Source of the DNA: Actinomycetota bacterium
Lineage (GTDB): Bacteria > Actinomycetota > Actinomycetes > Mycobacteriales > SCTD01
Assembly: GCA_046723735.1 (NCBI GenBank)
Contig: JBKOVB010000114.1
Coordinates: forward strand, 8,498-72,497
Direction of reading: 5' to 3'
Length of the DNA: 64,000 bases
Of the stretch, positions 4,321 to 63,446 are shown one piece after another (the first letter of the stretch is position 1; the number at the start of each line of letters is the position of its first letter). The notes below the pieces were generated by a model, which was not told the DNA's origin, ran no database searches, and saw only the letters and a program-made list of their open reading frames with translations. The position numbers and the translations under genes are program-made.

Positions 4321-4704
4321 ATGACCGCCATGACCGCCGTGCGCCCCACCGAGCTCGACCCTGCCATCGCCGCCAAGCTCAAGCGCGACAAGGACGGCCT
4401 CGTCGTCGCCGTCTGCCAGCAGCACGACACCGGCGAGGTGCTCATGGTCGGCTGGATGGACGACCAGGCGCTGCACCTGACGCTCACCACGGGCCGTTGC
4501 ACGTACTGGTCGCGGTCGCGGCAGGAGTACTGGGTCAAGGGTGAGACGTCCGGCTCGCAGCAGTGGGTGAAGTCCGTCGCGCTGGACTGCGACGGCGACA
4601 CGCTGCTGGTCAAGGTCGACCAGGTGGGCGGCGCGTGCCACACCGGCGACCGGACCTGCTTCGACGCCCTGCCGCTGCCGGCCGTCGTCGGCGAGCGCCC
4701 ATGA
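4321..4704 (+). CDS. hisI: Phosphoribosyl-AMP cyclohydrolase HisI
   Basis: [26 protein letters not shown]...[17 protein letters not shown]...[21 protein letters not shown] is the HisI signature. Confidence 0.9.
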
Positions 4705-44201: not shown

Positions 44202-44892
44202 GTGCAGGGCGGGCCCCTGCCCCGAGCCCCTCACGCAGGGCGATGGTCACCGCCTCGAGGCTGGTGTGCACGCCGAGCTTGGCCAGCACGTTCTGCGCGT
44301 GCGTCCGGACCGTGTTCACGGACAGCCGCAGACGGGCGGCGATCTCCTCGCGGGACAGGCCCTCCGCCATGCCCACGAGCACCTGCCGCTCGCGCCCGGT
44401 CAGCCGCTCGAGCCGGGCGACGGCCGCCGCGTCCTGCTCCCGGACGAGGTTCTGCACGACCTCGCCGAGCACCGCTCTCGGCAGCCACCACTCGCCGTCG
44501 GCGACGGCGCTGATCACCTGGGACACCTCCGCCAGGGGGGCGCTCTTGGGCAACCAGCCGCGCGCCCCGGCGACGACCAGAGCGCCGAGAGCCCGGGTCC
44601 CCTCGTCCGCGGTGAGCACGACCAGCCCGACCTCCGGGTGGCGGCGTCTGACCTCGTCCAGGAACCCGACTTGCCAGGAGCCGGGCTCCACACCGACCAC
44701 CACGACGCGGGGGGCGACGTGCTGGAGCCGGTGCAACGCGTCGTCGGCGCTGCTCGCCGACCAGACCAGACCGGTGCGCGACTCCAGCGCCAGACCCAGG
44801 GCCAGGCCCTCCGCGAACGTGCGCTCGGGGTCGACCACGAGCACATCCACCGTGCCCAGCGGCGCCTGCCGTCTCTCGACGGTCGTCGTCAC
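44170..44892 (-). CDS. LuxR/NarL-family response regulator, atypical (phospho-acceptor Asp replaced by Gly)
   Basis: The C-terminal HTH is [44 protein letters not shown]. In the receiver-like N-terminus, [10 protein letters not shown] aligns to the canonical DLILLDLNMPG. The GTG start overlaps the upstream stop (GTGA). Confidence 0.75.
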
Positions 44893-45521
44893 GAGCAGCA
44901 CGGCAACCGGTCGTGGGGCGCGCGGGCATGCCGGGCGACGTGCGCGACCGCCTCGACGCGCGAGTGCGCCCCCAGCTTGTCGAGGATGGACTGCACGTAG
45001 CTCCGTGCGGTCGACTGCGTGATGCCGAGCTCGCGGGCGATGCCCTCGGTCGACCGAGCGGCGACCAGCAGGGCGAGCACCTCGGACTCCCGGGCGGTCA
45101 GGAAGCGCAGCCGCCAAGCACCGTCTGCGAGCGGCTCCTGTGCCGATGGCGTCAGCTCGAGGGGCACTGGCGCCCCGTGCACCGCCGCGAGCAACCCTTC
45201 CAGGGAGTCGGTGCGAGGCACCACCTGGTGGGCACCCGCCTCGAGCGCGGCACGTCGCTGCTCCCCGTCGTCGGCCGTGGACAGGCAGACGACGAGGGTC
45301 TGCGGCCAGGCCCGCCGTACCCGCCGGACCACCGCCAGCGCGGCAGCGACGTCCGAGCGCAGGCTGATGACCAGCAGGTGCGCCGCCCTGTCGGCGAGGC
45401 ACGCGGCGACGTCGGCCGCGCGCGTGACGACGCTGACCTCGCACAGCCCCTCCCGGCGCAGCGCGAGCCCCAACGACTGGCCGAACATGAGCTGCTCGTC
45501 GCAGACCAAGGCGCTCTCCAT
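44889..45521 (-). CDS. LuxR/NarL-family response regulator, atypical (phospho-acceptor Asp replaced by Ser, conserved Lys replaced by Arg)
   Basis: The HTH is LTARESEVLALLVAARSTEGIARELGITQSTARSYVQSILDKLG. In the receiver-like N-terminus, HLLVISLRS sits at the phospho-acceptor position. A GGGGGAG SD is present. Confidence 0.75.
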   Translation of the reverse strand: MESALVCDEQLMFGQSLGLALRREGLCEVSVVTRAADVAACLADRAAHLLVISLRSDVAAALAVVRRVRRAWPQTLVVCLSTADDGEQRRAALEAGAHQVVPRTDSLEGLLAAVHGAPVPLELTPSAQEPLADGAWRLRFLTARESEVLALLVAARSTEGIARELGITQSTARSYVQSILDKLGAHSRVEAVAHVARHARAPHDRLPCCS

Positions 45522-45561
45522 GGCTCCCCCTCTCGCCCTGACGAGGCCGGGGGAGCGGGGA

Positions 45562-45570
45562 CTGATACGT
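45562..45570 (+). promoter_or_regulatory. Copy 1 of the recurring 9-mer CTGATACGT
   Basis: It lies in the divergent region between the LuxR-type gene (start 45521) and the GT2 gene (start 45663), and is oriented toward the GT2 gene 93 nt downstream. Confidence 0.4.
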
Positions 45571-45662
45571 CAGCCTCCTGCGTTCGTCCTAGTCCTCTTG
45601 CAGGCTCTGCCCGAGGTGGTGCCGATGTCACGGTGGGCGAGAGCCACGTCACGGGAGGGCCG

Positions 45663-46694
45663 ATGGCACGACCGCTCGAGCCCGCGGACGGGCGCGTCTC
45701 CGTCATGATGCCCCTACGGCAGGAGGGGCCGGAGCTGCACCGGGTGCTGGAGGCGGTCACAGGTCAGGACTGCCCGGCGCTCGACCGGATCGTGGTCGCC
45801 GTCGGTCCGAGCCAGGACGGGACGGACGAGGTCGTCCGGGCCTGGGCCGCCCGCGACCCGCGGCTGCTGGTCTTGGACAACCCCGAGGGCATCGTGAGCA
45901 CCGGCCTCAACCGGGCGCTGGAGGCGGTCACGAGCCGTTACGTCGTGCGGATCGACGGTCACTGCCTGGTGCCCCGGAACTACGTGGGTCACCTGCTGCG
46001 GACGGCTGAGCGGACGGGCGCCACCTGCACGGGTCCGCGCCTGCGCACGGTGGGTTCGGGCACGATGCAGCGCGCCATCGCGGCCGCGATGAGCTCGCGG
46101 TTCGGCGTCGGCGGCTCCCGCTTCCGGACCGCCACGCGCTCCGGCTTCGTCGACACCGTGGCCTTCGGGCTCTACGAGCGCGACCTGTTGGTGCAGCTGG
46201 GCGGGTTCCGGCCCGAGCTGGTGCGCAACCAGGACGACGAGCTCAACGCGCGCCTGCGCCGGGCCGGTGGGACCGTGTACCTGGACGCCGACGTGTGCGT
46301 CGACTACTACCCCCGCCGCCGGCTCCGGGCGCTGTGGCGTCAGTACTACGAGTACGGGTACTGGCGCACCGTCAGCGCTCGGTCGTTCGGGGACCGGCTC
46401 GGCCCGCGGCAGCTCGCGCCTGGCGCCTTCGTCGCCGGGCTGGTGGGAGGTCTCGCGGTCACTCTCGCGGGGCAGCCGCTGCCCCTGCTCGTGGCCGTCG
46501 TCGCGTACGGCGGGGTGCTGGCCCTGCTCGTGATGCAGACCCTGCGTCGCACCTCGGACCCCGCCGTGGCGCTGCTCAGCGCCCCGGCAGGCGCCGTGCT
46601 GCACGTGTCGTACGGCTGTGGCCTGTGGCGTTCGCTGCTGCGGCCCGGGATGCTGCGCCCGGCGCGTTCGCCGCAGCAGCAGGCAGGCGGATGA
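45663..46694 (+). CDS. Glycosyltransferase family 2 with C-terminal TM helices
   Basis: A GGGAGGG SD precedes the ATG. VSVMMPLRQEG...DGTDEVVRAW...LDNPEGIVSTGLNRAL...RIDGH...QDDELN, followed by 2-4 hydrophobic helices. Confidence 0.8.
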   Translation: MARPLEPADGRVSVMMPLRQEGPELHRVLEAVTGQDCPALDRIVVAVGPSQDGTDEVVRAWAARDPRLLVLDNPEGIVSTGLNRALEAVTSRYVVRIDGHCLVPRNYVGHLLRTAERTGATCTGPRLRTVGSGTMQRAIAAAMSSRFGVGGSRFRTATRSGFVDTVAFGLYERDLLVQLGGFRPELVRNQDDELNARLRRAGGTVYLDADVCVDYYPRRRLRALWRQYYEYGYWRTVSARSFGDRLGPRQLAPGAFVAGLVGGLAVTLAGQPLPLLVAVVAYGGVLALLVMQTLRRTSDPAVALLSAPAGAVLHVSYGCGLWRSLLRPGMLRPARSPQQQAGG

Positions 46695-48088
46695 CCGTGC
46701 TCCTGCAGGCCGCCAAGCCCCCGCCCCCCGCCCCTCCCGACGCGCGGCGCTCGCCGGCGTGGCCGCTGGTGCTTGTCCCCCTGCTCGTCGTCCCCCTCGG
46801 CTGCCTTGCGTTGCTCGTGTGGCTGCCCGAGATGGGCGGGGTGCGCCTCGCCAGCGCGGTGTTCCTCCTGGTCGCCGTGCTCGTCCTGCTCGTGCGGCCG
46901 CGAGGCCTTCTGTCAGCACGCACGTGGGTGGTCGGCTACCTCGTCCTGCAGTTCCCCGTCCGCGCGCTGTTCCTGCTCACCGCTCCCAAGGAGAGACCGC
47001 CCATCTACGCCGAGGTGTCGCCCGGCGTGGGTCTCGAGCCGGCGTTGGTCACGGCCCTGCTCGAGTCGATCTTGGGCCTGGCGGTGCTCGGGGCCGTCTA
47101 CGTCCTGGGGCACCAGTACTGGCGCCCGCCGACTCGTCCGTCGATGCACGTGGCGCTGCGGTGGCAGAGGGCGTACCTGCTGCTGCTCGTCGGGGCGTTC
47201 ATGCTGCCGATCGAGCTCACCGCCGGCAGCGGCTCGAGCGGTGCGTTCATCATCAGCCTCCCTGGGCTCGCGGCCTCGGGGGCGGCCGCGGTCGTCTGCT
47301 TCGCCTTCGTGCAGTCACCCGGCCGCTGGTGGCCGATCTTCCTGCTCGCGGTCGCCTACACCGCGGCCAGGGTCACCCTGCTCTCGTCGAAGATGGCGCT
47401 GCTCGCGGGCCTGCTCGCCGCGGTCCTCAGCCTGGTCGGCCGGCTGCAGCGGCGACGGGGACGGCTGCCGGTCGTGCGCGGCACGATCGTGGTGCTCGTC
47501 TGCCTGGCCACGGCGTCGTACATCTTCGCCGTGGGCAGCGGCCGCAGCCACGGGCGTGGCGTCGCCGACTCGGTCGGGCAAGGGGCGCAGGCCGCGGTGT
47601 CCCGCAGCTACGGGGTGGACGCCGTGGTGGCCACGAACGAGCACCTCGCCAGGGGGGCGCGGCCGTTGTACGGCCAGAGCTTCGTCGAGATCGTCTACTC
47701 CTGGGTGCCACGCGCGTTCTGGCCGGACAAGCCGAGGTCGTTCTCCATCCGGTACGGCGAGGACGTGTTCTCCTTCACCCAGGGCGTCGGCCGGGAGTTC
47801 TTCGCGCCCAGCTACTCCGGGGAGTGGCTGCTGAACTTCGGGGTGCCCGGGCTCGTCCTGGGCTGGATGTTGTTCGGCCTTGCGCTGGCCCGGGTGGACG
47901 CGCTCGCCTCGATACCCCACCGGATGCTGTGGCTCGCGTCGCTGGTGCACCTCGTCGAGGGGTCGGTGGTGGCCCAGTTCTGGTTGGCGGCGCCGTTCAT
48001 CGTGGGCGGGTACTGGGTGCTGCGCCGTGACGCAGTCGTCCCGGACGCCCTGCGGCTGGCGCCGGTGCCGCTGGAGGCGACCGCTTAG
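46691..48088 (+). CDS. Wzy-like oligosaccharide repeat-unit polymerase / O-antigen-ligase-like membrane protein
   Basis: The ATG overlaps the GT2 stop (ATGA). It has about 10-12 TM helices and one larger loop. There are no catalytic motifs I can name, so the call rests on architecture and context. Confidence 0.55.
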   Translation: MTVLLQAAKPPPPAPPDARRSPAWPLVLVPLLVVPLGCLALLVWLPEMGGVRLASAVFLLVAVLVLLVRPRGLLSARTWVVGYLVLQFPVRALFLLTAPKERPPIYAEVSPGVGLEPALVTALLESILGLAVLGAVYVLGHQYWRPPTRPSMHVALRWQRAYLLLLVGAFMLPIELTAGSGSSGAFIISLPGLAASGAAAVVCFAFVQSPGRWWPIFLLAVAYTAARVTLLSSKMALLAGLLAAVLSLVGRLQRRRGRLPVVRGTIVVLVCLATASYIFAVGSGRSHGRGVADSVGQGAQAAVSRSYGVDAVVATNEHLARGARPLYGQSFVEIVYSWVPRAFWPDKPRSFSIRYGEDVFSFTQGVGREFFAPSYSGEWLLNFGVPGLVLGWMLFGLALARVDALASIPHRMLWLASLVHLVEGSVVAQFWLAAPFIVGGYWVLRRDAVVPDALRLAPVPLEATA

Positions 48089-49350
48089 AGCGTCTCGACG
48101 TTGTCGCCTTTCATGCGGTTCCGCGCGTCGAAGACGTAACGGGCGTGCGCCGTGACGAGGTCGTAGTCGAAGCAGTCGTGGTCGGTCACGAGGACCACGG
48201 CGTCTGCGGCCCGCACCTCGTCCACGGTGAGGTCGACCCGCGTCACGTGCGACGGCACCTGCGCGTCGTGCAGGTGCGGGTCGCAGGCGCGCACCTCGGC
48301 CCCCAGCGCCCGCAGCCGCTCGGCGACGACCGCCCCCGGTGCCTCGCGCGCGTCACCCGTGTTCCTCTTGTACGACAGGCCGAGGAGCAGGACCCGTGCC
48401 CCGTTCAGCGCCTGCTGGCGCCGGTTGAGGCCGAGCATGACGCGGCGCACCACGTGGTCGGGCATGTGGTCGTTGACGTCGTTGGCGAGCTCCACGAACC
48501 GGAACGGGTGGCCGAGGCTCTGGCGCACGCTCCACGACAGGTAGCTCGGGTCGATGGGCAGGCAGTGGCCCCCGACCCCCGGACCAGGGGTGAACGGCAT
48601 GAAGCCGAAGGGCTTCGTCGCCGCGGCCTCGATCGCGGCCCAGATGTCGATCCGGAGGTCCGCCGCGAACATGGCCAGCTCGTTGACCAGCGCGATGTTC
48701 ACGTGCCGGAACGTGTTCTCCAGCAGCTTGGCGAGCTCCGCCTCGCGGGTCGACGGGACGGCCACGGTGCGGCTGACGATGCGTTCGTAGAACGCGCGCA
48801 CACGCTCGAGCGACAGGTGGTCGATCCCTGAGATGATCTTCGGCGTGTTCTCGAGGCGCCACGTCGTGTTCCCCGGGTCGATCCGCTCGGGGCTGTAGCC
48901 GAGGTAGAAGTCGGTCCCCGCGCGCAGCCCGCTGCCGTCCTCGAGGATCGGCCCCACGACCTCCTCCGTCGTGCCGGGGTACGTCGTGGACTCCAGCACC
49001 ACCAGGGCTCCGGGTCGCAGGTAGGGCGCCAGCGTGCGGGTGGCGTGCTCCACGAACGACAGGTCGGGGGCGCCATCCGCGAGCGGGGTGGGCACGGTGA
49101 CCACGGCGGTGTCGAAGTCCGCGCACACCTGCGCGTCGTTCCCGGCGACGAGGCGCCCCGTGGCCAGGCAGGCGGCCAGCACCTCGTCGGGGATGTCCTC
49201 GACGTAGGAACACCCGGCGTTCAGGGCGTCGACCCGCGACTGCTGCACCTCGTAGCCGCCGACGAGGAACCCCGCCTGCGTGGCGCGTACGGCGAGGGGC
49301 AGACCCACGTAGCCGAGGCCGACCACGACGACCTTCTGGGGAGCTGTCAC
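48085..49350 (-). CDS. Nucleotide-sugar 6-dehydrogenase (UDP-N-acetyl-hexosamine dehydrogenase WecC/WbpA/TviB-like)
   Basis: N-terminal Rossmann VVVVGLGYVGLPLA, catalytic GGHCLPIDPSYL and the ELANDVNDHMP motif typical of the HexNAc-dehydrogenase branch. GTGA overlap with the upstream GT4. Confidence 0.85.
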   Translation of the reverse strand: MTAPQKVVVVGLGYVGLPLAVRATQAGFLVGGYEVQQSRVDALNAGCSYVEDIPDEVLAACLATGRLVAGNDAQVCADFDTAVVTVPTPLADGAPDLSFVEHATRTLAPYLRPGALVVLESTTYPGTTEEVVGPILEDGSGLRAGTDFYLGYSPERIDPGNTTWRLENTPKIISGIDHLSLERVRAFYERIVSRTVAVPSTREAELAKLLENTFRHVNIALVNELAMFAADLRIDIWAAIEAAATKPFGFMPFTPGPGVGGHCLPIDPSYLSWSVRQSLGHPFRFVELANDVNDHMPDHVVRRVMLGLNRRQQALNGARVLLLGLSYKRNTGDAREAPGAVVAERLRALGAEVRACDPHLHDAQVPSHVTRVDLTVDEVRAADAVVLVTDHDCFDYDLVTAHARYVFDARNRMKGDNVETL

Positions 49351-50414
49351 ATCCGGCCTCCCGCCAGATCGGGCCACTGCCAGTCGGGGTGCTCGCCTGT
49401 CGCCAGGGCCAGCACCCGGCGGCGCCAGGCCGGCAACGCGAACTCCTCTGCAAACTTCGTCGTGTCCGCGCGGGCGGTGTCGCTCACGTGCAGCCGCCAG
49501 GCTGCCTCCGCCACCGCGCCGGGCGTGGCCCCGGCGGCCAGGAGCACGCCGGTGCGCCCGTCCACGATGCTGAAGCCGCTCCCGCCGCACTCGAGCACGA
49601 CGGCGGGGCACCCGTGGGTCGCCGCCTCGAGCACCACCAGGCCCAGACCCTCGAACTCGCCCGCTTCAGTGCGGGGCAGGAACAGCAGCACGTCCGCGTC
49701 GGCGTACAGCCGCTGCTTCACCTCCTCCGGCACACCGCCGTGGATGGCGACCTTGAGCCCCGGCCGCGTGACGCCTGCGGCCCGGGCGCACAGCCGTGCC
49801 AGGTCTGGACCGGGTCCGACGACGTCGAGCCTTGTGGGGATGCTGGTCGCCAGCTCCCGTGCCGCCTCGATCGCCAGGTCGTGCCCCTTGCGAGGGACCG
49901 CGCGGCCGACCGACAGCAGTCGCACCTCGCCGTCCGGACGGGAGCGGCTCGTGACGCCGCGCGCAGGGGAGATGGGAGGGCCGACCAGCTCCGCCCGCGG
50001 GCGCAGGTCCGGCGGCAGCAGCTGCACCGCCAGCGGGCTGACGGCGAGCAAGGCTGCGGCCTCGTGGAGGATCCGGTCCCGTGCCCGTCGCTGGAGGGAC
50101 CCGGCATCGCGCGTCAGCTCCGCGCCGTGCAGCCAGAGCAGGCCCTCCTTCAGCACGCCGGGATGCCGCACCCCTACGAGGGTGTGCGTCTTCCACGTGA
50201 GCGACATCCAGGAGCCGTGCGGCCGCGGGGAGCGCACGACGCCCCCCAGCCCGACGTGCAGCCTCGCCGGGCCTCCCGCGTCCATGAGTGCGGCATGAAC
50301 CTGCCGGGCCACGCCCTCCACGCCCCCGATGTACGCGGACGGGCTGAACACCTGCACCGGGGCCCGCTGAGTGCCAACGGTGGCGTGCACGTGGCGTGGG
50401 GCCGTCGACGTCAC
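49347..50414 (-). CDS. Glycosyltransferase family 4 (GT-B)
   Basis: IGGVEGVARQV near the N-terminus and EGLGLVVLEAATHGCPAVV...GVLL (E-x7-E). There are GTGA overlaps at both ends. Confidence 0.8.
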   Translation of the reverse strand: MTSTAPRHVHATVGTQRAPVQVFSPSAYIGGVEGVARQVHAALMDAGGPARLHVGLGGVVRSPRPHGSWMSLTWKTHTLVGVRHPGVLKEGLLWLHGAELTRDAGSLQRRARDRILHEAAALLAVSPLAVQLLPPDLRPRAELVGPPISPARGVTSRSRPDGEVRLLSVGRAVPRKGHDLAIEAARELATSIPTRLDVVGPGPDLARLCARAAGVTRPGLKVAIHGGVPEEVKQRLYADADVLLFLPRTEAGEFEGLGLVVLEAATHGCPAVVLECGGSGFSIVDGRTGVLLAAGATPGAVAEAAWRLHVSDTARADTTKFAEEFALPAWRRRVLALATGEHPDWQWPDLAGGRM

Positions 50415-51178
50415 TCGTGCACCCTGGTCGCCACCGCGGCCATCGCCCACGAGGGGTGGAGCCCACAGCGGTGCAGCTCGAAGGCGGAGTCGCCCGGGAG
50501 CACGCGACCGGGCAGCGCGCTCGCCGCGCTGCGGTAGCCGGCCTCGGCGACCAGCTCCAGGTCGCGCGGCGTGTAGTCGACGCCCGGGAGCCCGTAGGGC
50601 AACGAGAAGTCCAGGATCGGCATGCCGAGGCGTGCCTCGAGCTCTGCCTTCGAGTCCCGCACCTCCTGGCGGGCAGTGCGCAGGTCCAGGGCGGCAAGGC
50701 GGGCGTGCGTGAGGCTGTGGGAGCCGAGGTGCATGCCATGGTCGGCCAGCCGCGTGCAGTCGCTCCAGGTGAGCTTGTCCTTGCTCTTGCCGGCCACCAC
50801 CTGGCCGGTGGTGATGAAGAACGACGCCGGCACGTTGAGCTCCTGCAGCAGCGACAGAACCTCGCCCACCCACTCCTTGTGGCCGTCGTCAAAGGTGAGG
50901 CAGAAGCGTGGACCACCGAGCGGGTCGTGCGAGGTGGTCGAGTCGAGCGTCTCGTCCCACGTGACGAACCGTCCACGGTCGAGCATCGCCTGGATCTGCC
51001 GCCGCAGGCCTGACGGGTCGTCCACGCCGTGGTACAGAAGGACGAAGATGCCTCCCGTGGTCTCGGGCAGCCGATGCCGCAGCCCGGCAGGGGCGAGGAT
51101 GAACGACTGGAGGCGTGGTCGGGCCCGCAACCAGGCCCGGGTGCGCGGGAGAGCTCCACCCGCGAGGTACGCATTCAT
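50411..51178 (-). CDS. Polysaccharide deacetylase (NodB / CE4 family)
   Basis: LTFDDGH (metal/catalytic motif 1), HSLTH (motif 2) and LPYG. I prefer the ATG at 51178 because the upstream 90 nt of the ORF have poor codon bias and an ATA codon. Confidence 0.8.
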   Translation of the reverse strand: MNAYLAGGALPRTRAWLRARPRLQSFILAPAGLRHRLPETTGGIFVLLYHGVDDPSGLRRQIQAMLDRGRFVTWDETLDSTTSHDPLGGPRFCLTFDDGHKEWVGEVLSLLQELNVPASFFITTGQVVAGKSKDKLTWSDCTRLADHGMHLGSHSLTHARLAALDLRTARQEVRDSKAELEARLGMPILDFSLPYGLPGVDYTPRDLELVAEAGYRSAASALPGRVLPGDSAFELHRCGLHPSWAMAAVATRVHE

Positions 51179-51353
51179 GAACGGATGCTTACCGGGGGAG
51201 GCGATCCGCGGAGCCTGCACGCGAACTAGTGCTCGTTGAGCCGGGTCCCGTACCGCCGCGTGTATCACGGGGGCGAACCGTGCGCTCTTGTCGAGAGCCG
51301 CATGCTTCGGCGCGCGTCACAGACGGTTGCTTTTGGTTCGCGAGAGGGACGAC

Positions 51354-52061
51354 ATGGCGCCTGATGCCGAGGTCCGCATGATCCGGCGACATGCCCCGCT
51401 CGTCGTGGCGTGCCTCGTGGCAGGGGCGTTGACGGCCGCTCTGCTCTCGGCGCGCACGCCGCGTGAGTACCAGTCCGATGTCGGCCTGTTCGTGTCCGCC
51501 ACACGCTCCGCCACCTCGGGCGGGGTCTACGACCGGGCGCGCTTCGCCCAGGAGCGTGTGAAGTCCTACGTCCCGCTCGTGACGAGCCCGTCGGTGATGA
51601 GCGCGGTGATCAAGGACCTCGAGCTCGGCACCACACCGGAGCGGCTGGCCCAGCAGCTCTCGGTCACGGCGTCGCCCGACACCGTCCTGCTCCGCATCGT
51701 CGCGACTGATCGCTCAGCGGCCACCGCCCGCGACATCGCCAACGCGACGGCGGAGGAGTTCGCGCACTTCGCGGTGGCGCTTGAGGGGCGGGACGGGTCC
51801 GTGCCGTCGGTTCAGCTGCGGATCACCAAGCCGGCCGAGCTCAACCGCACCCCCGTACGCCCCCGCACCGCGTACAACCTGGCCCTGGGCGTGTTCTTCG
51901 GCCTCCTCATGGGGCTCGGCCTTGCCGCGCTGCGAGAGCGGTGGAGCCCGACCCCTGCGACCACACCCGAGCCGCAGGACGAGCCGGCGGCAAGCGCCTG
52001 GCCGCCCCACTCCGTCATCGAGCCGCACGTGGCTCGCCGAGCGTCCCACCGGCCGAGCTGA
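51354..52061 (+). CDS. Wzz-like polysaccharide co-polymerase (chain-length determinant), no kinase domain
   Basis: N-terminal TM (LVVACLVAGALTAALL), a Wzz-like segment (YQSDVGLFVS...VLLRIVATDRSAATARDIANATAEEF) and a C-terminal TM (LALGVFFGLLMGLGLAAL). Confidence 0.65.
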   Translation: MAPDAEVRMIRRHAPLVVACLVAGALTAALLSARTPREYQSDVGLFVSATRSATSGGVYDRARFAQERVKSYVPLVTSPSVMSAVIKDLELGTTPERLAQQLSVTASPDTVLLRIVATDRSAATARDIANATAEEFAHFAVALEGRDGSVPSVQLRITKPAELNRTPVRPRTAYNLALGVFFGLLMGLGLAALRERWSPTPATTPEPQDEPAASAWPPHSVIEPHVARRASHRPS

Positions 52062-52103
52062 CCAGCCGGGGTCGACCAGCCGTCGACGGATCGAAGGAGG
52101 ACC

Positions 52104-53090
52104 ATGGGGCAGACGGCCGGAAGAGTGCTGGTGGTCGGCCCCTCGAAGGTCGGCGACATGGCGTGGTTCCTCGCCCTGGCCTACCGACGGCTGGGATGGC
52201 AGGTCTCGTTGCTCGACGACCGGGCATACGTCAGCCGAGGGATCCCGGGAACCGTCGGCAAGGCGCTCTGGATCCTCGAACGGGACCACCGCATCACCCA
52301 CCGTACGCGCAGCCTCGGTGAGATCCTGCGGCGACGGGCGCGCGGGTGCGACCACGTGATCACGGTGAAGGGCGAGTACTTCAACCCGGAGGACGTCGCC
52401 GCGGTTTCCGCCTCCGTGCCGTTCGTGAACTGGCACCCGGACCACCCGGTGCTGGACCAGGCGTACGTCTGCATCCCGCACTACACCGCTTTCTGCCCGA
52501 AGGACAGCTGGAGCACGCAACGGCTGCGGGCCATGGGGTTTCTCAACGTCACGACCCTGCCGCACGCCTCTGACCCGCAGGTGCTCTACGGCCGTCGCGA
52601 GGAGCCGGCGGAGCCGTCCTGCTCCGTGGTCGCTGGCATGTACCCCTACCGGCGGCACTGGGTGGAGCAGGCGCGCGCCCTCGGCCTGCGTGTCGAGATG
52701 TGGGGCAGCACGTTGGGTGAGGAGCTGCCTGCTGTGACGGCCCGGGCCAAGCAGGCCGTCGGGCCGGAACAGGGCAGGGCGCTGCGGACCGGCTGCTTCA
52801 CGTTGAACACGCACGCACCCAAGGACGTGGCGGGCGGCAACCAGCGGGTCTTCGACGCCGCCGCCGCGGGTGCACCCCAGCTCACCGAGCGCCTTCCCGA
52901 GAGCCTGCGGCACTTCGAGCCGGACACGGAGATCGCGGTCTTCGAGGACCGTGAAGAGTTCGAGAGCCAGGTGAAGGAGCTTGTGGCGAGCCCCGCGCTG
53001 CGGGACCGCCTCGCCCGCAACAGCCACGAACGGCTGCGCGCGGAGCACACCTACGAGCACCGCATACACACCATCCTCGGCCTGCTGTGA
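52104..53090 (+). CDS. CgeB-family glycosyltransferase-like protein
   Basis: A GAAGGAGGA SD is present. The C-terminal region (NQRVFDAAAAGAPQLTE...EIAVFEDREEFESQVKELVASPALRDRLARNSHERLRAEHTYEHRI) is typical of CgeB/Glyco_trans_1_2 proteins. Confidence 0.6.
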   Translation: MGQTAGRVLVVGPSKVGDMAWFLALAYRRLGWQVSLLDDRAYVSRGIPGTVGKALWILERDHRITHRTRSLGEILRRRARGCDHVITVKGEYFNPEDVAAVSASVPFVNWHPDHPVLDQAYVCIPHYTAFCPKDSWSTQRLRAMGFLNVTTLPHASDPQVLYGRREEPAEPSCSVVAGMYPYRRHWVEQARALGLRVEMWGSTLGEELPAVTARAKQAVGPEQGRALRTGCFTLNTHAPKDVAGGNQRVFDAAAAGAPQLTERLPESLRHFEPDTEIAVFEDREEFESQVKELVASPALRDRLARNSHERLRAEHTYEHRIHTILGLL

Positions 53091-53094
53091 GCGG

Positions 53095-54207
53095 GTGCCC
53101 GTCGCCGTGCTGACCTGGGAACGTCTGTCCCTCGACGACGTCGACTGGGCGCGCCTGGACGCGCTGCCCGACCGCGTGCTCTTCCAGACACGTGCATGGC
53201 TCGAGTTCCTGGCGGACACCCAGGGGGGCGAACCGGTCGTCGCGGTGCTGCGTGACGGCCAGGAGGAACGCGGCTGGTTCACCGGCCTCGTCACCTCGCG
53301 CCTGGGCATGCGTCTGCTCGGGGCGCCGCTGCCCGGCTGGACGACCCAGTACATGGGTTTCAACCTGCTGCCGGGCAGCTCGCGAGGCGAAGCGCTGGCG
53401 GGGCTGGCCCGGTTCGCCTTCGGCGACCTGCGGTGCGTCCATGCGGAGGTGTGCGACCGGTACGCCGGGCCGGCGGACCTCCAGCCGCTGGCGGGCCCCT
53501 GCGACGAAATCCTGACGTACTCCGTGGACCTCCGGCCGGAGGAGGACGAGATCCGCAGGCGCATGACGAGTGGCACGCGACAGAACATGCGCAAGGCGGA
53601 ACGGGTCGGGCTCACGGTGGAGGATGCCGAGCCCGAGGGCTTCGCGGCCGAGTACTACGCGCAGCTCGAGGACGTCTTCGCCAAGCAGCGGCTCGTCCCG
53701 ACGTACTCGCAGCAGCGGGTCGAGGCGCTCATCCGCCACGTCCACCCGACGGGCAACCTGCAGCTGATCCGGGTGCGGGCGGCGGACGGGACCTCGATCG
53801 CCACCGCGCTGGTCGCGGGTCTGGGTCCGGCTGCGTACTTCTGGGGCGGGGCGAGCTGGCGGCAGCACCAGCACCTGCGGCCCAACGAGCTGCTCTTCTG
53901 GCACGCCTTCACGACCTGGAAGGCTCGCGGCGCCGAGGAGTTCGACTTCGGCGGCGGCGGCGACTACAAGCGCAAGTACGGCGCGTGCGAGCTTGTCGTG
54001 CCGCACGCCCGGCTGTCGCGGTGGCGGGTGCTCGAGCACCTCCGTGACGCCGCCAAGCACGCGGTCAAGGTGCGGCAGCAGGCAGCAGGCGCGGTACGCC
54101 GGGCGGTCGGCCCGGGGGCTCCGGACGCGCCAAGGCGGCGCGACCGGGAGGTCACGCCGCCTTGGCGTCGTTCAGGTGCGGGGGAGGGTCAGCGACCGCC
54201 CTCGTAA
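53095..54207 (+). CDS. FemAB-like / GNAT-fold (Acetyltransf_6) aminoacyl- or peptidyl-transferase-like protein
   Basis: FQTRAWLEFL at the N-terminus, then RQNMRKAERVGL and YFWGGASWRQHQHLRPNELLFWHAFTTWKARGAEEFDFGG, as in FemX/CelD-like proteins. It starts 4 nt after the CgeB-like stop. Confidence 0.6.
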   Translation: MPVAVLTWERLSLDDVDWARLDALPDRVLFQTRAWLEFLADTQGGEPVVAVLRDGQEERGWFTGLVTSRLGMRLLGAPLPGWTTQYMGFNLLPGSSRGEALAGLARFAFGDLRCVHAEVCDRYAGPADLQPLAGPCDEILTYSVDLRPEEDEIRRRMTSGTRQNMRKAERVGLTVEDAEPEGFAAEYYAQLEDVFAKQRLVPTYSQQRVEALIRHVHPTGNLQLIRVRAADGTSIATALVAGLGPAAYFWGGASWRQHQHLRPNELLFWHAFTTWKARGAEEFDFGGGGDYKRKYGACELVVPHARLSRWRVLEHLRDAAKHAVKVRQQAAGAVRRAVGPGAPDAPRRRDREVTPPWRRSGAGEGQRPPS

Positions 54208-55895
54208 GCACCGATGTCGAACGTCGAACCCTGCGGACGACCCACGAGGTCGAGGTCGTACGAAGGAGCCTGCTGGCTCGTGCCCTTGTCGATCACCGGG
54301 CTCGTCGTCTTGACGTGGTAGTCGCCGCCCGAGTAGTTGACGAACTGCGGGTCTGCCGTCACGGTGCCGGTCGGGACGCCGCCGCCGCTGAGCGAGTAGG
54401 CGCCAGAGGCGTTGCCGTAGAGCAGGTTGTTGGCGTAGGTGTTCACGCCGACCCGGCCCATCTCACGGATGCCCCAGTAGCCGTTGTTGACCACGACGTT
54501 GTTCGTCACGACGGTGCCCGAGTCGATGCCCGGCGCGATGTCGTTGCCCTCCAGCGAGCCACCGATCACCATGCCGCCCTGCGTGTTGCGGAAGACGGTG
54601 TTGTTGGCGATGTACACGTGGTTCGCGTTGTGCCAGAGGTGGATGCCCCAGCCGCTCGTGTCGTAGACGAGGTTGTTGAGGATCCGACCGCCGTACGGGC
54701 CCTGGTAGTAGATGCCGTGGATGAGACCGCAGCTGCTCACCGGAGCCTTGATGTTGTGGATGACGTTGCCGATCGAGTCGACGTTGGTCTCCGAGTAGTT
54801 CTGCAGCTCGATGCCGGCACCACCGCGCGAGCAGTCCGGCGGAGCCATGTCGTGGATGTGGTTGCCCAGGAAGCGGTCGTTGGAGGCCGTCGACATGATG
54901 CCGCTGTACTTCGAGCCGGTGATGTCGAAGTTCTGGATCACGACCCACTGGCCGGTGTTGGTCCAGGCGTTGGTGCTGCCCGGCGCGTAGATCTTCGCAC
55001 CCCACTTGCTGTCGGAGACGAAGGTGATCGGAGCGCTCTGTGTGCCGCTGTTGACGGACTCGACGTACCCGTAGGTGCCGGGCCCGACATGCACGATGGT
55101 GCCGGCGGTGGCCACGCTGGCCGCCTTGCTGACCTGACGGAACGGCGCGCTGCTCGTGCCGGGGTTGCTGTCGCTGCCGGAAGCCGAGACGTACAGGTTC
55201 TTCGTCCCGACGAGCGGCCACGGGTCGGTGCTCGTCGGCGCGCTCGGTGACGTGGTCGGGCTCGCGGAGGGCGACGGCGACGCGGTCGGGCTGGTGGTCG
55301 GGCTGGCCGTGGGGCTCGCCGTCGGGCTGCTCGTGGGCGTGCTGCTCCCCTTGCGGGCCACGACCTCGATGCCCTTCACCATCGCGTTGTTGACGCTGGC
55401 GCTGAAGCCCAGGTCGACGTTGCTGTCGCCGGACTTCACCGTGAAGGTCACGTCGTACGCCGTGTCGGCGCCGACCACCTTCACCAGGTCGAGGTTGGAC
55501 ACGACCGTGTTGCCCTCGGCCGTGGCGGAGAAGACGCGCTGGCCGGCCGTGGTCGCCCACGTCTCGGCCATCCGCAGCGTGACGTCGTAGAAGCCCGCGG
55601 CAGGGACCGGGATCTTGTAGCCGGACATGCCGTAGCGCTCGGTGGCGTAGGCCGTGGGGTTGTCCGTGTTGGCGATCGTGTGCGTGTTCGCCGCCGCGGC
55701 ACCACCGATGAAGTACTGGTCGGCGATCCACGTCTGGCCGGACGGGTCGGTGTAGCCGGCACCGCCGGCGTTGATGTGGACGCTCCAGGGCGTCGTGGTG
55801 GCCGCGTTGGCCAGGGTCAAGGGGAGGGCGGCCGCTGCCGCCGCGAGAGCCACCGGGAGGGCGACCAGAGCGGTTTTCTTCTTGGTGCACCGCAT
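54189..55895 (-). CDS. Secreted malectin-like carbohydrate-binding domain, Pro/Thr/Ser linker and right-handed beta-helix (polysaccharide lyase/hydrolase-like)
   Basis: Signal peptide (ALPLTLANA), a malectin-like region (INAGGAGYTDPSGQTWIADQYF), a PT/S linker and beta-helix repeats rich in N/G/I/V (NNTVFRN, TNNVVVNN). An AGGAGA SD is present. Confidence 0.7.
   Translation of the reverse strand: MRCTKKKTALVALPVALAAAAAALPLTLANAATTTPWSVHINAGGAGYTDPSGQTWIADQYFIGGAAAANTHTIANTDNPTAYATERYGMSGYKIPVPAAGFYDVTLRMAETWATTAGQRVFSATAEGNTVVSNLDLVKVVGADTAYDVTFTVKSGDSNVDLGFSASVNNAMVKGIEVVARKGSSTPTSSPTASPTASPTTSPTASPSPSASPTTSPSAPTSTDPWPLVGTKNLYVSASGSDSNPGTSSAPFRQVSKAASVATAGTIVHVGPGTYGYVESVNSGTQSAPITFVSDSKWGAKIYAPGSTNAWTNTGQWVVIQNFDITGSKYSGIMSTASNDRFLGNHIHDMAPPDCSRGGAGIELQNYSETNVDSIGNVIHNIKAPVSSCGLIHGIYYQGPYGGRILNNLVYDTSGWGIHLWHNANHVYIANNTVFRNTQGGMVIGGSLEGNDIAPGIDSGTVVTNNVVVNNGYWGIREMGRVGVNTYANNLLYGNASGAYSLSGGGVPTGTVTADPQFVNYSGGDYHVKTTSPVIDKGTSQQAPSYDLDLVGRPQGSTFDIGAYEGGR
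55224..55349 (-). repeat. Low-complexity tandem coding repeat (S/T-P-T-A-S-P linker)
   Basis: It encodes SSTPTSSPTASPTASPTTSPTASPSPSASPTTSPSAPTS. The DNA shows reiterated GGTCGGGCT-like units. Confidence 0.8.
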
Positions 55896-55969
55896 GGCGA
55901 AGCTGTCTCCTGAGGGGGGTCGGAGCTATGACCCCCTGTGCTTCGACCAGGTCCCGGAAGCGCTTGACT

Positions 55970-55978
55970 ACGTATCAG
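55970..55978 (-). promoter_or_regulatory. Copy 2 of the recurring 9-mer CTGATACGT (minus strand)
   Basis: The plus strand reads ACGTATCAG. It lies 75 nt upstream of the ATG (55895) of the malectin/beta-helix gene and is oriented toward it. Confidence 0.4.
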
Positions 55979-56066
55979 GAGTGGCACGTCACACTGCGTT
56001 GTCAGGTCGCCCCGGCGCATGCGCGTTCGTCCCAAATACAGTTGCGCGCAAGGGGATGAAGCGGCC

Positions 56067-57305
56067 TCAGCCGTCAACGGCGCTTGCGCGCTTCGTCCCC
56101 TCTGCGACGTCGGCGGCCGTTGCCGGTCGAGTCCGACGTAGCAGGACGTAGCCGACGACGGCGGCCAGCCCCTCGGCGGCGAGCAGGACGACCGGCATCA
56201 CCCAGGAGCGCGCCACAGCGAGCCCCGTCACGGCCGCGCCGATCACCAGGACGGGTGCAAGCATGTTCACGACGATGCGCTGCTTGTCCCGGTACCCGAC
56301 GATGAGGCCGATCTCGACCACGTACTTGGGCCCCCACACCGCGAGCAGCAGGGCACCGAGCGCGGCGTATCCGGCTGCCCCCGTGTAGCTGGGACCGACC
56401 AGCGGCGCGAGCACCGGTTGCCACAGCAGCACCCCTGCACCCACGCCGAGGAGGCCGGGCAGCGACGCGCCGAGCACGACCCGCCCCGACATGGGACGGG
56501 CCCGGGCGAGCAACGGGGGGAGGGCGTTCTGCAGGAGCAGCCACAACGCGTTCGCGGCGGCGGCGGCGGCCCGCATGCCGAGGGCGAACGCACCCGCCGC
56601 CTGCGTGCTGCCGGTGCTGGTCATCGTCGCGAGCGCAAGAGGTACGGCGACCTGTCCCCCGACCCCGGCTGCCCCGAACAGCAGAGAGGTCTGCAGGTGA
56701 CCTTTCCAGGCGCGCCAGGAAGCCACCCAGCGAGGAACTCCGCTCGTCCGGCTCAGGACCAGCATCGCCACCGCCGCGCCCGCGAGCGGCGAGAGCCCGA
56801 AGGCGAGCGCGTAGACCACGGGCTCGGACGGCGGGACGACCACCCACACCGTGAGGCAGCACAGGACGACGGCCCAGTTCGCCGCGCCGAGCTGCACGAG
56901 CTGCCCCCGTGCGCGCAGCCACCAGTCGGGGAACACGGCGTACGCGACGAGGTAGGGGCTCATCGCCAGCAGGAGCCTGCCGTTCTGGGTCGAGCCGGCT
57001 CCGGTGACCAGGAGCAGCAGGACCAGCACGGCGCTCACCGCGACCGCGAGTGCGAGGTACAGGCTGAAGATCTCGCTGCCCAGCCGGCGCTGCTCGGAGC
57101 CGGCGCTCGCTGCGAGGGTCCTGATCGAGTAGCCGGCCTGTCCGAGGTCGACAGCCCACCAGGCGTAGCCGATCCAGCTCAGGGCTACCGCGAAGTACGC
57201 GAACGAGGAGGCGCCGAGCTTGCGCGCGACGAGGACGACGGCCAGGAAGGCGACGAGCTTGGGCAGCCAGTCGGAGACCACCGTCAGCAGCAAGGTCCGG
57301 CGCAA
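56067..57305 (-). CDS. Wzx-type (MOP superfamily) polysaccharide flippase
   Basis: About 12 TM helices with a polysaccharide-biosynthesis-protein N-terminus (LVAFLAVVLVARKLGASSFAYFAVALSW). The proposed TTG start at 57305 has a GAGGA SD 4 nt upstream, but the start is uncertain. Confidence 0.65.
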   Translation of the reverse strand: MRRTLLLTVVSDWLPKLVAFLAVVLVARKLGASSFAYFAVALSWIGYAWWAVDLGQAGYSIRTLAASAGSEQRRLGSEIFSLYLALAVAVSAVLVLLLLVTGAGSTQNGRLLLAMSPYLVAYAVFPDWWLRARGQLVQLGAANWAVVLCCLTVWVVVPPSEPVVYALAFGLSPLAGAAVAMLVLSRTSGVPRWVASWRAWKGHLQTSLLFGAAGVGGQVAVPLALATMTSTGSTQAAGAFALGMRAAAAAANALWLLLQNALPPLLARARPMSGRVVLGASLPGLLGVGAGVLLWQPVLAPLVGPSYTGAAGYAALGALLLAVWGPKYVVEIGLIVGYRDKQRIVVNMLAPVLVIGAAVTGLAVARSWVMPVVLLAAEGLAAVVGYVLLRRTRPATAADVAEGTKRASAVDG

Positions 57306-57360
57306 CGGTTCCTCAGCTCCCTCGGGGGCGTCGTACGAAGAGGAATCCGGGTCGCGTCGC

Positions 57361-57369
57361 CTGATACGT
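57361..57369 (+). promoter_or_regulatory. Copy 3 of the recurring 9-mer CTGATACGT
   Basis: It lies in the divergent region between the Wzx gene and the ATP-grasp gene, 87 nt upstream of the ATP-grasp GTG. It shares the 10-mer CTGATACGTC with copy 1. Confidence 0.4.
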
Positions 57370-57455
57370 CCCCGGCTGAGCCATGTGTATCTATAGCGCG
57401 ACCAGGTGCTCTGCAGGTAAGCACGGCCCTGTTGCGCGGCCGGGAGAGGGGCGAG

Positions 57456-59446: not shown

Positions 59447-59487
59447 GCCAACCGCCAGGGCAGTCCCACTGGGTGGAACCACAGCGC

Positions 59488-59500
59488 TTACCGCCGGTAA
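59488..59500. promoter_or_regulatory. 13-bp palindrome TTACCG-C-CGGTAA (candidate operator)
   Basis: Perfect 6-bp arms flank one central base, 56 nt upstream of the GT4 GTG at 59556. Confidence 0.35.
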
Positions 59501-59555
59501 CAGGTGCTCGCTACCCTGTGTGCTCCTTTTGTGTCCCCGATCGACAGGAGCGCCG

Positions 59556-63338: not shown

Positions 63339-63446
63339 GGGAGTCCTCTCGAGCAGCGGGCCAACCAGTATCACCCGGCGGGTGAGCTCCCTCTCCTTGC
63401 CCCCTCCGGGGCGGCGGGTGAAGGCTCCGGCGTGGGGGGTGGTCTC

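What the first reader, a model, noticed from the sequence alone, without database searches (positions are those of the whole stretch)
45562..57369. The 9-mer CTGATACGT recurs in three promoter regions of the island
I found the exact sequence CTGATACGT three times:
- 45562-45570 (+), between the LuxR-type gene and the GT2 gene.
- 57361-57369 (+), between the Wzx and ATP-grasp genes.
- 55970-55978 (-), upstream of the malectin/beta-helix gene.

Each copy points toward a gene start 75-93 nt downstream. Copies 1 and 3 (45562 and 57361) share the 10-mer CTGATACGTC.

Five of the nine positions are A/T in a genome where A and T are rare. By a rough composition argument, fewer than one copy is expected in the whole window. 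All three lie in the few intergenic regions of one island. I noticed no further copy by eye.

This looks like a shared cis-element defining a regulon. The adjacent tandem LuxR-type proteins are the obvious candidate binders.
Basis: seen in the sequence. Interest (0 to 1): 0.6.

Follow-up and report, generated by a model that had tools for sequence, protein, structure and literature searches.

The report
Shared promoter box of polysaccharide operons
The repeated 9-mer is real and is part of a conserved two-block DNA signal that sits in front of most operons of a cell-surface polysaccharide system, most likely a promoter read by a dedicated alternative (ECF) sigma factor rather than a LuxR binding site; this is an ordinary kind of gene switch in an uncultured actinobacterial genus.

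Summary
Observation confirmed. CTGATACGT occurs three times in the window (0.06 expected) and five times in the 3.39-Mb genome. All five copies are non-coding.

The conserved core is the heptamer CTGATAC. It is one block of a two-block unit, AGAGC(C)-N14-15-TGATAC. On the other strand this reads GTATC(A/T)-N14-15-SSCTC(T).

- TGATAC is the most enriched 6-mer in the island's intergenic DNA (P=3e-7).
- GATAC is present in all 12 orthologous intergenic regions of the four species that carry the island.
- In intergenic regions with a gene start on one side only, the unit points GTATCA->CTCT->gene.
- In divergent regions two units lie back to back.

The geometry matches actinobacterial ECF-sigma promoters (for example sigma-D, GTAAC-N17-18-GAT). 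An ECF sigma gene lies in a second locus of the same system (contig C70: pglC-degT-capD-ORF-ECF). The unit lies within 5 kb of that gene or its homologue in 8 of 11 genomes, including two without the LuxR pair.

So the shared cis-element and regulon are supported. LuxR as binder is not favoured, and copies 1 and 3 probably serve luxR1 and wzx, not GT2 and ATP-grasp. Copy 2 (malectin gene) has no second block, is not conserved and remains unexplained. No transcript data were available.

The parts
45542..45570 (-). Unit 1. Read on the minus strand it is GTATCA (45568-45563), N15, GCCTCG (45547-45542), ending 20 nt before the luxR1 ATG at 45521.
   Evidence: Conserved as GTGATACAT in G001 and CTGATACGC in G014.
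57339..57369 (-). Unit 2. It reads GTATCA (57367-57362), N17, TCCTCT (57344-57339), ending 33 nt before the wzx TTG at 57305.
   Evidence: Heptamer conserved in G001, G005 and G014.
57387..57412 (+). Unit 3, back to back with unit 2. It reads GTATCT-N14-TGCTCT, ending 43 nt before the ATP-grasp GTG at 57456.
   Evidence: A second inverted heptamer is present in all four species, with an inner spacer of 11-38 nt.
51262..51288 (+). Unit 4. It reads GTATCA-N15-CGCTCT, ending 65 nt before the wzz ATG at 51354, in the divergent region shared with the deacetylase gene (ATG 51178).
   Evidence: Conserved in G001, G005 (two copies) and G014.
63368..63394 (+). Unit 5. It reads GTATCA-N15-CCCTCT, ending 52 nt before the ATG at 63447 of a metallo-beta-lactamase-fold gene. 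It is 29 nt upstream of the GTG at 63338 of the divergent Methyltransf_24 gene. This unit is less certain because that start codon is inferred.
55970..55978 (-). It is a heptamer only, with no second block, and is not conserved in G001, G005 or G014. Unexplained.
44889..45521 (-). luxR1: a REC + GerE response regulator that lacks the phospho-acceptor Asp. It is probably transcribed from unit 1.
44170..44901 (-). luxR2: a second Asp-less REC + GerE regulator, overlapping the end of luxR1.
45590..45604 (+). TAGTCC-N4-GCAGG block upstream of GT2 (ATG 45663), conserved in G001 and G014. A copy, TAGTTC-N4-GCAGG, lies at 51214-51228 (-) upstream of the deacetylase gene. It is a candidate separate promoter or leader element for GT2 and the deacetylase operon.

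Best explanation
CTGATACGT is this genome's long form of the heptamer CTGATAC.

Shown:
- The heptamer is one block of a conserved bipartite unit. Read on the opposite strand the unit is GTATC(A/T)-N14-15-(S)SCTC(T).
- The unit stands in front of most transcription units of a two-locus cell-envelope polysaccharide system.
- Locus A is the window island: luxR1-luxR2, wzz-GT-FemAB-like, wzx, ATP-grasp-phosphoesterase, and the MBL-fold gene.
- Locus B is contig C70: pglC-degT-capD, an unknown ORF, an ECF sigma gene, and a divergent STAS gene.
- Outlying targets are a DUF4012 gene and a third beta-helix gene.

Inferred:
- The unit is an ECF-sigma-type promoter. GTATC is the -35 box, CTC(T) is the -10 box 17-18 nt later, and transcription starts a few nt downstream. 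The -10 block ends 8-91 nt before the start codon for most genes.
- In divergent intergenic regions two such promoters lie back to back, with the -35 boxes in the middle.
- The sigma is most likely the ECF sigma of locus B (C70:4416-5006), which would also drive its own operon in relatives.
- The Asp-less LuxR pair is then a member of the regulon, not its master.
For: 1. Enrichment. TGATAC is the top 6-mer in island intergenic DNA, with 5 copies in 5 regions against 0.13 expected (P=3e-7). All 5 TGATAC copies in the window are non-coding and in the island.

2. Conservation. GATAC occurs in 12/12, TGATAC in 11/12 and CTGATAC in 8/12 orthologous intergenic regions of the four island-bearing species. 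Shuffles reach at most 8 for the 5-mer and 4 for the 6-mer.

3. Second block. GAGC lies 20-21 nt upstream of GATAC in 10/18 sites, against a null maximum of 5. In 28 units matched with a 14-17 nt spacer allowed, the spacer is 14 or 15 in 26.

4. Direction. Six non-divergent contexts point GTATCA->CTCT->gene:
- G000 capD (C70:3900-3926)
- G000 DUF4012 gene (C122:1765-1791)
- G005 GT2
- G001 acyl-CoA-dehydrogenase-like gene
- G005 pas-luxR-ECF operon
- G008 RR-ECF operon
A further unit, upstream of the G000 third beta-helix gene (C145), also points at its gene. Every pair seen in a divergent region has the heptamers inside, with a variable inner spacer of 7-38 nt.

5. Geometry. It equals the published actinobacterial ECF promoter layout: sigma-D GTAAC-N17-18-GAT and sigma-H GGAAT-N18-20-GTT (PMC11588781).

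6. Link to the ECF sigma gene. The gene is confirmed (Sigma70_r2; TIGR02937 at 80 bits). A strict GAGC-N14-16-TGATAC match lies within 5 kb of the ECF gene or its homologue in 8 of 11 genomes. Genus members with the ECF orthologue have 2-7 matches, against 0-4 in those without (Mann-Whitney p=0.002). G006 and G008 have units in front of the ECF operon but no LuxR1 orthologue and no island A.

7. No canonical -10. The 12 orthologous regions contain no TANNNT on either strand, against 8-14 expected. The one island region without a unit has TACCCT in the right place.

8. Functional coherence. All strict genome hits that have a downstream gene are polysaccharide-related.
Against: - No transcription start data.
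- GTATC lacks the 'AAC' core typical of ECF -35 boxes, and no described ECF group with this motif was found.
- Gene starts in relatives come from my own rough caller. The automated direction count was only 6 against 5 before manual correction.
- The capD-region partner units in G001 and G014 have no called target gene.
- In G000 the region upstream of the ECF gene has GTATCA boxes but only a weak -10 (CGTCGG), 162 nt from the start.
- Copy 2, its paralogue on C85 and the C146 copy are heptamers without a second block and face their genes the other way. C146 is not conserved in 23 relatives.
- A bipartite operator for a transcription factor would give the same sequence pattern.
Confidence: 0.45

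Rival explanations
1. The bipartite unit is the operator of a DNA-binding regulator. The first reader proposed the island's tandem Asp-less LuxR/NarL-type pair, for example as a heterodimer with one HTH on TGATAC and the other on AGAGC two helical turns away. It would activate or repress promoters that lack good -35/-10 boxes, as RcsA-RcsB does at capsule operons.
For: - Both proteins are REC + GerE HTH regulators of the NarL/FixJ family.
- The pair is adjacent to GT2 in G001 and G014, and LuxR-type regulator genes lie beside the ECF gene in G005.
- A unit lies in the luxR1-GT2 region in all three genomes with that arrangement, which would fit autoregulation.
- Heptamer-only copies (S2, C85, C146, C9) are easier to explain as factor sites than as promoters.
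Against: - The unit is present beside the ECF sigma gene in G006 and G008, which have no LuxR1 orthologue (E<1e-24) and no island A.
- The two blocks are unlike each other and 14-15 nt apart, unlike the adjacent half-sites of NarL-family dimers.
- Paired units have a variable inner spacer of 7-38 nt, which is awkward for one protein complex.
- The recognition helix of the G005 LuxR1-like protein differs while the motif is unchanged.
Confidence: 0.3
2. The element works in the orientation the first reader assumed. CTGATAC would be a promoter box or a 5'-leader RNA element (ops/JUMPstart-like) pointing at GT2, the malectin gene and ATP-grasp, with leaders of about 70-100 nt.
For: - All five exact 9-mers have a same-strand start 76-101 nt away.
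- ATACGT, TGATAC and CTGATA are the three top-ranked of 409 A/T-rich 6-mers for lying 70-116 nt upstream of a same-strand start.
- S2, C85 and C146 have only that gene start nearby.
Against: - Most sites lie in divergent regions, where the distance test cannot tell direction.
- Six non-divergent units point the other way.
- Pairs would be face to face, with interdigitated promoters.
- No Rfam match.
- Hairpins between paired heptamers are no more stable than shuffles, and both arms are conserved in sequence without compensatory change.
- No common -10 lies at a fixed distance downstream.
Confidence: 0.07
3. Chance recurrence of an A/T-containing word in the A/T-richer intergenic DNA of a high-GC genome, with no function.
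For: - The genome-wide count of the 9-mer (5) equals the composition expectation of about 6.
- TGATAC as a word is not unusual in count or non-coding share.
- Copies S2 and C146 are not conserved.
Against: - Clustering P=3e-7 after an unbiased scan of all 6-mers.
- 12/12 conservation across four species whose proteins are only about 60% identical.
- A fixed second block.
- Linkage to the ECF gene in 8 of 11 genomes.
Confidence: 0.02

Closest known systems
Actinobacterial ECF sigma promoters, especially sigma-D (ECF40) of Corynebacterium glutamicum and Mycobacterium tuberculosis: GTAAC-N17-18-GAT (PMC11588781)
   Same: - A five-base -35 box of the form G-T-A-x-C, a short -10 box and a fixed 17-18 nt spacer.
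- A small ECF sigma of about 190 aa.
- A regulon of cell-envelope genes.
- The motif stands in front of the sigma's own operon in several genomes.
   Different: - The -35 is GTATC, not GTAAC, so there is no 'AAC' core.
- The -10 is CTC(T), not GAT.
- The sigma matches no named NCBIfam equivalog, only the ECF superfamily model.
- No RsdA-like anti-sigma was recognised. Instead there is an unknown 121-aa ORF and a divergent STAS-domain gene.
- Sigma dependence is untested.
RcsA-RcsB at the RcsAB box of capsule (cps/wza) operons; NarL heptamer sites
   Same: Two LuxR-type HTH proteins are encoded next to polysaccharide genes. A short asymmetric box lies upstream of the operons and of the regulator gene itself.
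   Different: - The blocks are dissimilar and 14-15 nt apart, not adjacent half-sites.
- The box also occurs in genomes without the pair.
- Both regulators lack the phospho-acceptor Asp.
- No binding data exist.
JUMPstart/ops element with RfaH in Gram-negative polysaccharide operons
   Same: A short conserved word recurs upstream of several polysaccharide operons.
   Different: - ops acts in the transcribed leader in one orientation.
- Here the direction tests place the heptamer upstream of the start.
- No RNA family match was found.

Membership tests
ECF-sigma-dependent promoter | Two short conserved blocks with a fixed spacer (pentamer to triplet about 17-20 nt) | tested here: met
   GTATC-N17-18-CTC. 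In 28 units matched with a 14-17 nt spacer allowed, the hexamer-to-hexamer spacer is 14 or 15 in 26. The second block is enriched at a fixed offset, 10/18 against a null maximum of 5.
ECF-sigma-dependent promoter | -35 box with an 'AAC' core (GGAAC/GTAAC type) | tested here: not met
   The -35 is invariantly GTATC. This is one base away from sigma-D's GTAAC.
ECF-sigma-dependent promoter | A copy in front of the sigma's own operon (autoregulation) | tested here: inconclusive
   Met in G005, G006, G008 and G014 according to my gene calls. In G000 the region upstream of the ECF gene has GTATCA boxes, but only a weak -10, 162 nt away.
ECF-sigma-dependent promoter | Motif and sigma gene co-occur across genomes | tested here: met
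   A strict match lies within 5 kb of the ECF gene or its homologue in 8 of 11 genomes. Match counts are 2-7 with the orthologue and 0-4 without (p=0.002).
ECF-sigma-dependent promoter | Transcription start a few nt downstream of the -10, and dependence on the sigma | not testable with these tools
ECF-sigma-dependent promoter | Cognate anti-sigma encoded next to the sigma | tested here: inconclusive
   The 121-aa ORF downstream has no Pfam or NCBIfam match. A STAS-domain gene lies divergent to the sigma gene.
NarL/FixJ (LuxR-type) response-regulator operator | REC + GerE regulator encoded beside the sites | tested here: met
   luxR1 and luxR2.
NarL/FixJ (LuxR-type) response-regulator operator | Repeated similar half-sites at a short fixed spacing (for example 7-2-7) | tested here: not met
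   The blocks are AGAGC and TGATAC, 14-15 nt apart. Heptamer pairs are spaced 7-38 nt apart.
NarL/FixJ (LuxR-type) response-regulator operator | Sites present only where the regulator is present | tested here: not met
   G006 and G008 carry units beside the ECF gene but have no LuxR1 orthologue.
Known structured RNA or leader element | Match to an Rfam model, or covarying helix | tested here: not met
   No Rfam match at E<=1. Hairpin z-scores range from -2.6 to +0.3, and both arms are invariant in sequence.
Sigma-28/WhiG promoter (TAAA-N15-GCCGATAA) | Consensus boxes, and sigma distribution matching the motif | tested here: not met
   A FliA/WhiG-family sigma is present across the genus regardless of the motif. 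No TAAA box occurs at the expected spacing, and no match to the combined TAAA-N14-16-(S)C(Y)GATA pattern was found anywhere in the genome.

The most novel reading that the evidence does not exclude
The GTATC box may be read by two homologous helix-turn-helix modules: region 4 of a non-canonical ECF sigma (-35 GTATC, -10 CTCT) and the sigma-4-like GerE domains of the phosphorylation-independent LuxR pair. The sigma itself transcribes the pair. The pair would then feed back by competing with or assisting the sigma at the same box. The heptamer-only copies (malectin gene, C85, C146, C9) would be LuxR-only sites. The whole would form a self-contained, horizontally movable sigma/regulator/promoter code for a two-locus glycopolymer system.
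Probability: 0.1. Interest if true: 0.6.

Novelty: new member of a known kind. Interest (0 to 1): 0.38.

Why it matters
If confirmed, the motif gives a ready regulon map for an uncharacterised cell-surface polysaccharide system in an uncultured actinobacterial genus.
- It ties together two loci that lie on different contigs, including the priming transferase that the window island lacks.
- It assigns a target motif to an ECF sigma of no named group, whose -35 box lacks the usual AAC core.
- It corrects which genes the repeated word serves.

It is a sound but ordinary regulatory finding. Its main use is for annotation and for choosing promoters and sigma pairs to test.

Tried and rejected
- **Sigma-70 readings of the heptamer.** As a -35 box it has no common -10 at 16-19 nt. 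As a -10 box it does not fit TANNNT (sequence inspection).
- **Classical ECF reading in the forward orientation** (AAC ... CGT). No match.
- **Rfam scan of 40-64 kb.** Nothing found.
- **RNA hairpin between paired heptamers.** Not more stable than shuffles.
- **Sigma-28/WhiG.** The sigma is genus-wide and there are no TAAA boxes.
- **Repeat or mobile element.** Blastn of the intergenic regions against the genome found only a 17-nt match between S3 and C9. That pair aligns over about 40 nt with z of about 7, but the C9 copy is absent from the orthologous regions of G005 and G013.
- **Conservation of the C146 copy upstream of a core GT4 gene.** Absent in all 23 relatives with a match.
- **Literature search for the motif.** It returned only primers and unrelated hits.
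- **One-mismatch 9-mer count.** Uninformative.
- **Global MAFFT alignment of the intergenic regions.** Too diverged except for S1.
- **The look-up of sequencing runs.** Closed.

Full report
**Observation.** CTGATACGT is present exactly three times in the window, at 45562 (+), 55970 (-) and 57361 (+). Dinucleotide shuffles give 0.06 expected copies. The single one-mismatch hit, inside wzx, is chance level. The whole assembly (3.39 Mb, 72% G+C, 176 contigs) holds five exact copies, which matches composition. All five are non-coding, and each has a same-strand start 76-101 nt away. Only 16% of comparable 9-mers are non-coding, and about 7% of random non-coding positions have such a start. One-mismatch variants (153 genome-wide, 103 coding) are not enriched.

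**Gene map** (GC3 and codon-score calls plus Pfam):
- uvrB, 42048-44201 (+)
- luxR2, 44170-44901 (-)
- luxR1, 44889-45521 (-)
- GT2, 45663-46694 (+)
- O-antigen-polymerase-like membrane protein, to 48088 (+)
- UDP-sugar dehydrogenase, a GT4 and a polysaccharide deacetylase on the minus strand (deacetylase ATG 51178)
- wzz-like (ATG 51354), Glyco_trans_1_2 and FemAB-like acetyltransferase (+)
- malectin/beta-helix protein, 54189-55895 (-)
- wzx, 56067-57305 (-)
- ATP-grasp, 57456-58640, and a metallophosphoesterase (+)
- GT4, methyltransferase and a prenyltransferase-like protein (+)
- Methyltransf_24 gene (-)
- an MBL-fold gene from about 63447 (+)

**The core is shorter than the 9-mer and more widespread.** TGATAC occurs five times in the window. 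I scanned every 6-mer in the island's 1083 nt of intergenic DNA against the other 320 kb of non-coding DNA. TGATAC/GTATCA comes first, with 5 copies in 5 regions against 0.13 expected (P=3e-7).

Only four of 23 species of the genus carry the island: G000, G001, G005 and G014. Their proteins are about 60-75% identical and the intergenic DNA is otherwise unalignable. Even so, across the 12 orthologous regions luxR1|GT2, wzx|next gene and deacetylase|wzz:
- GATAC is present in 12/12.
- TGATAC is present in 11/12.
- CTGATAC is present in 8/12.
Each is the most widely shared word of its length. Shuffles reach at most 8 for the 5-mer and 4 for the 6-mer. The CGT tail of the 9-mer is not conserved (A/G, then T/C).

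**A second block.** Aligning 18 heptamers on GATAC shows GAGC, usually AGAGC(C), 20-21 nt upstream in 10 sites. The null maximum is 5. Written on the other strand the unit is GTATC(A/T)-N-SSCTC(T). Among 28 units found in the loci of seven genomes with a 14-17 nt spacer allowed, the spacer is 14 or 15 in 26. The five window units are listed under 'parts'.

**Direction.** Most units lie between divergent genes, where direction cannot be read. Where only one gene start is near, the unit points GTATCA -> CTCT -> gene:
- G000 capD (C70:3900-3926, 88 nt to the start)
- G000 DUF4012 gene (C122:1765-1791)
- G005 GT2, where uvrB's stop is on the other side and the unit is 61 nt from an ATG preceded by GGAGGAGGAG
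- a G001 acyl-CoA-dehydrogenase-like gene, 56 nt from a GTG preceded by GGAGG
- the G005 pas-luxR-ECF operon
- the G008 RR-ECF operon
A further unit lies upstream of a third beta-helix gene in G000 (C145:17567-17592) and also points at its gene.

The automated tally was 6 against 5. Of the five contrary cases, one is a locus-end artefact, two are weak variants, and two are the partners of capD-directed units. In G005 that partner faces a small called ORF. All pairs in divergent regions have the heptamers inside and the CTCT blocks outside, with inner spacers from 7 to 38 nt. This is the normal layout of back-to-back divergent promoters. It would be an odd layout for face-to-face promoters or for a single protein complex. 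The -10 block ends 8-91 nt before the start codon in 16 of 20 cases.

**Second locus and the sigma factor.** In G014 the island continues leftward into pglC-degT-capD, an ECF sigma gene, further regulators and a GGDEF-EAL protein. In G000 the orthologues lie on contig C70:
- pglC, 54-686
- degT, 689-1903
- capD, 1910-3811
- an unknown 121-aa ORF
- ECF sigma, 4416-5006
- a divergent STAS gene, 5348-5701
C70 also has TGATAC copies in both of these intergenic regions. Pfam and NCBIfam confirm an ECF-type sigma: Sigma70_r2, and TIGR02937 at 80 bits against a cut-off of 43.

Orthologues exist in the four island genomes and also in G006, G008 and G010, with more distant homologues in other families. 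A strict GAGC-N14-16-TGATAC match lies within 5 kb of the ECF gene or homologue in 8 of the 11 genomes that have one. Chance would give about 1% per genome. Genus members with the orthologue have 2-7 strict matches and those without have 0-4 (p=0.002). G006 and G008 lack island A and lack a LuxR1 orthologue, yet they carry units directly in front of the operon that contains the ECF gene.

Published actinobacterial ECF promoters have the same geometry: sigma-D GTAAC-N17-18-GAT and sigma-H GGAAT-N18-20-GTT (PMC11588781). Here the layout is GTATC-N17-18-CTC. The 12 orthologous regions contain no TANNNT hexamer on either strand, against 8-14 expected. The only island region without a unit has TACCCT 38 nt before the GT4 start.

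**The LuxR pair.** Both proteins are REC + GerE regulators of the NarL/FixJ family, and both have a non-Asp residue at the phospho-acceptor position. The same holds in the orthologues. The pair is adjacent to GT2 in G001 and G014. In G005, LuxR-type genes lie beside the ECF gene, and a similar Asp-less pair lies on a small contig. LuxR1 orthologues are absent from the sampled genomes of the rest of the genus and order. Under the promoter reading, unit 1 is the promoter of the pair itself. Nothing excludes that the pair also binds these boxes, but the distribution argues against it as the primary reader.

**What does not fit.**
- Copy 2 (malectin gene) and its paralogue upstream of a second beta-helix gene (C85, CTGATACAT) share a homologous leader. 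They have no second block and face their genes in the 'forward' sense.
- The orthologous genes in G001, G005 and G014 carry GGTTC-N16-CGTCGA at that place instead. That is itself an ECF-like promoter.
- The C146 copy upstream of a core GT4 gene is absent in all 23 relatives with a match.
- The C9 copy shares a 17-mer, and about 40 alignable nt, with unit 2. It is absent from the orthologous regions of G005 and G013.
These heptamer-only copies may be factor sites, remnants or chance.

**Limits.**
- There are no transcript data.
- Gene starts outside G000 rest on a home-made caller.
- Contig breaks hide some contexts.
- The strict patterns were chosen after seeing the sites.

**Verdict.** A real, conserved cis-regulatory unit defines a regulon (about 0.9). 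A transcription-factor operator, with the LuxR pair as the named candidate, has about 0.3.

Noticed in passing
G000 contig C70:54-5701 (locus L089): A second locus of the same polysaccharide system: pglC-like priming sugar transferase, DegT aminotransferase, CapD/PglF-like dehydratase, an unknown 121-aa ORF, an ECF sigma gene and a divergent STAS-domain gene. It supplies the priming transferase that the window island lacks.
   Followed up: partly
window 55896-55969 (-); C85:1477-1553; L005:15413-15500 and 16854-16940; L007:3640-3713 and 5031-5106; L047:3307-3400: The beta-helix/malectin genes share a conserved leader. In G001, G005 and G014 it begins with GGTTC-N16-CGTCGA, an ECF-like promoter. 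In G000 this is degenerate (TAGTC/GACTC ... GGTCGAA). A conserved GGGTC...GACCC hairpin then lies just before the CAGGAG ribosome site.
   Followed up: partly
window 45590-45604 (+) and 51214-51228 (-): TAGTyC-N3-TGCAGGCTC is shared by the GT2 and deacetylase upstream regions. These are the only two non-coding copies of TAGT.C....GCAGG in the genome, and the block is conserved upstream of GT2 in G001 and G014. It is a possible separate promoter or leader element.
   Followed up: partly
window 51187-51193 (-), 57416-57422 (+), 59486-59492 (-): GGTAAGC occurs three times in the window, all in island intergenic regions. It is the second-ranked word in the 7-mer enrichment test (P=2e-6 before correction). 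Orientation relative to the genes is inconsistent.
   Followed up: no
window 44170-45521 (-): Both LuxR-type response regulators and their orthologues in G001, G014 and G005 have Ser, Gly or Ala at the phospho-acceptor position. The two genes overlap by a few nt.
   Followed up: partly
window 59512-59517 (+): TACCCT, a canonical actinobacterial -10 hexamer, lies 38 nt before the GT4 GTG at 59556. This is the one island intergenic region that has no GTATC unit.
   Followed up: no
C9:29055-29125 versus window 57337-57412: The region between an M15-peptidase-like gene and a FadD-like gene shares GAAGAG..ATCCG..GCCTGATACGTCCCCGG and a following GTATCT with the wzx|ATP-grasp region (alignment z about 7). 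It looks like a copied promoter piece and is absent in the orthologous regions of G005 and G013.
   Followed up: partly
C59:12666-13343 (-): A bona fide FliA/WhiG-family sigma factor (290 bits, cut-off 190) is present in this genome and in most of the genus. No canonical TAAA-N15-GCCGATAA promoters were found.
   Followed up: no
L046:6431-11314 (G014): In G014 the ECF sigma gene is followed on the same strand by two more LuxR-type regulators, a histidine-kinase-like fragment and a PAS-GGDEF-EAL protein. All lie between capD and the LuxR pair, which suggests c-di-GMP input into the system.
   Followed up: no
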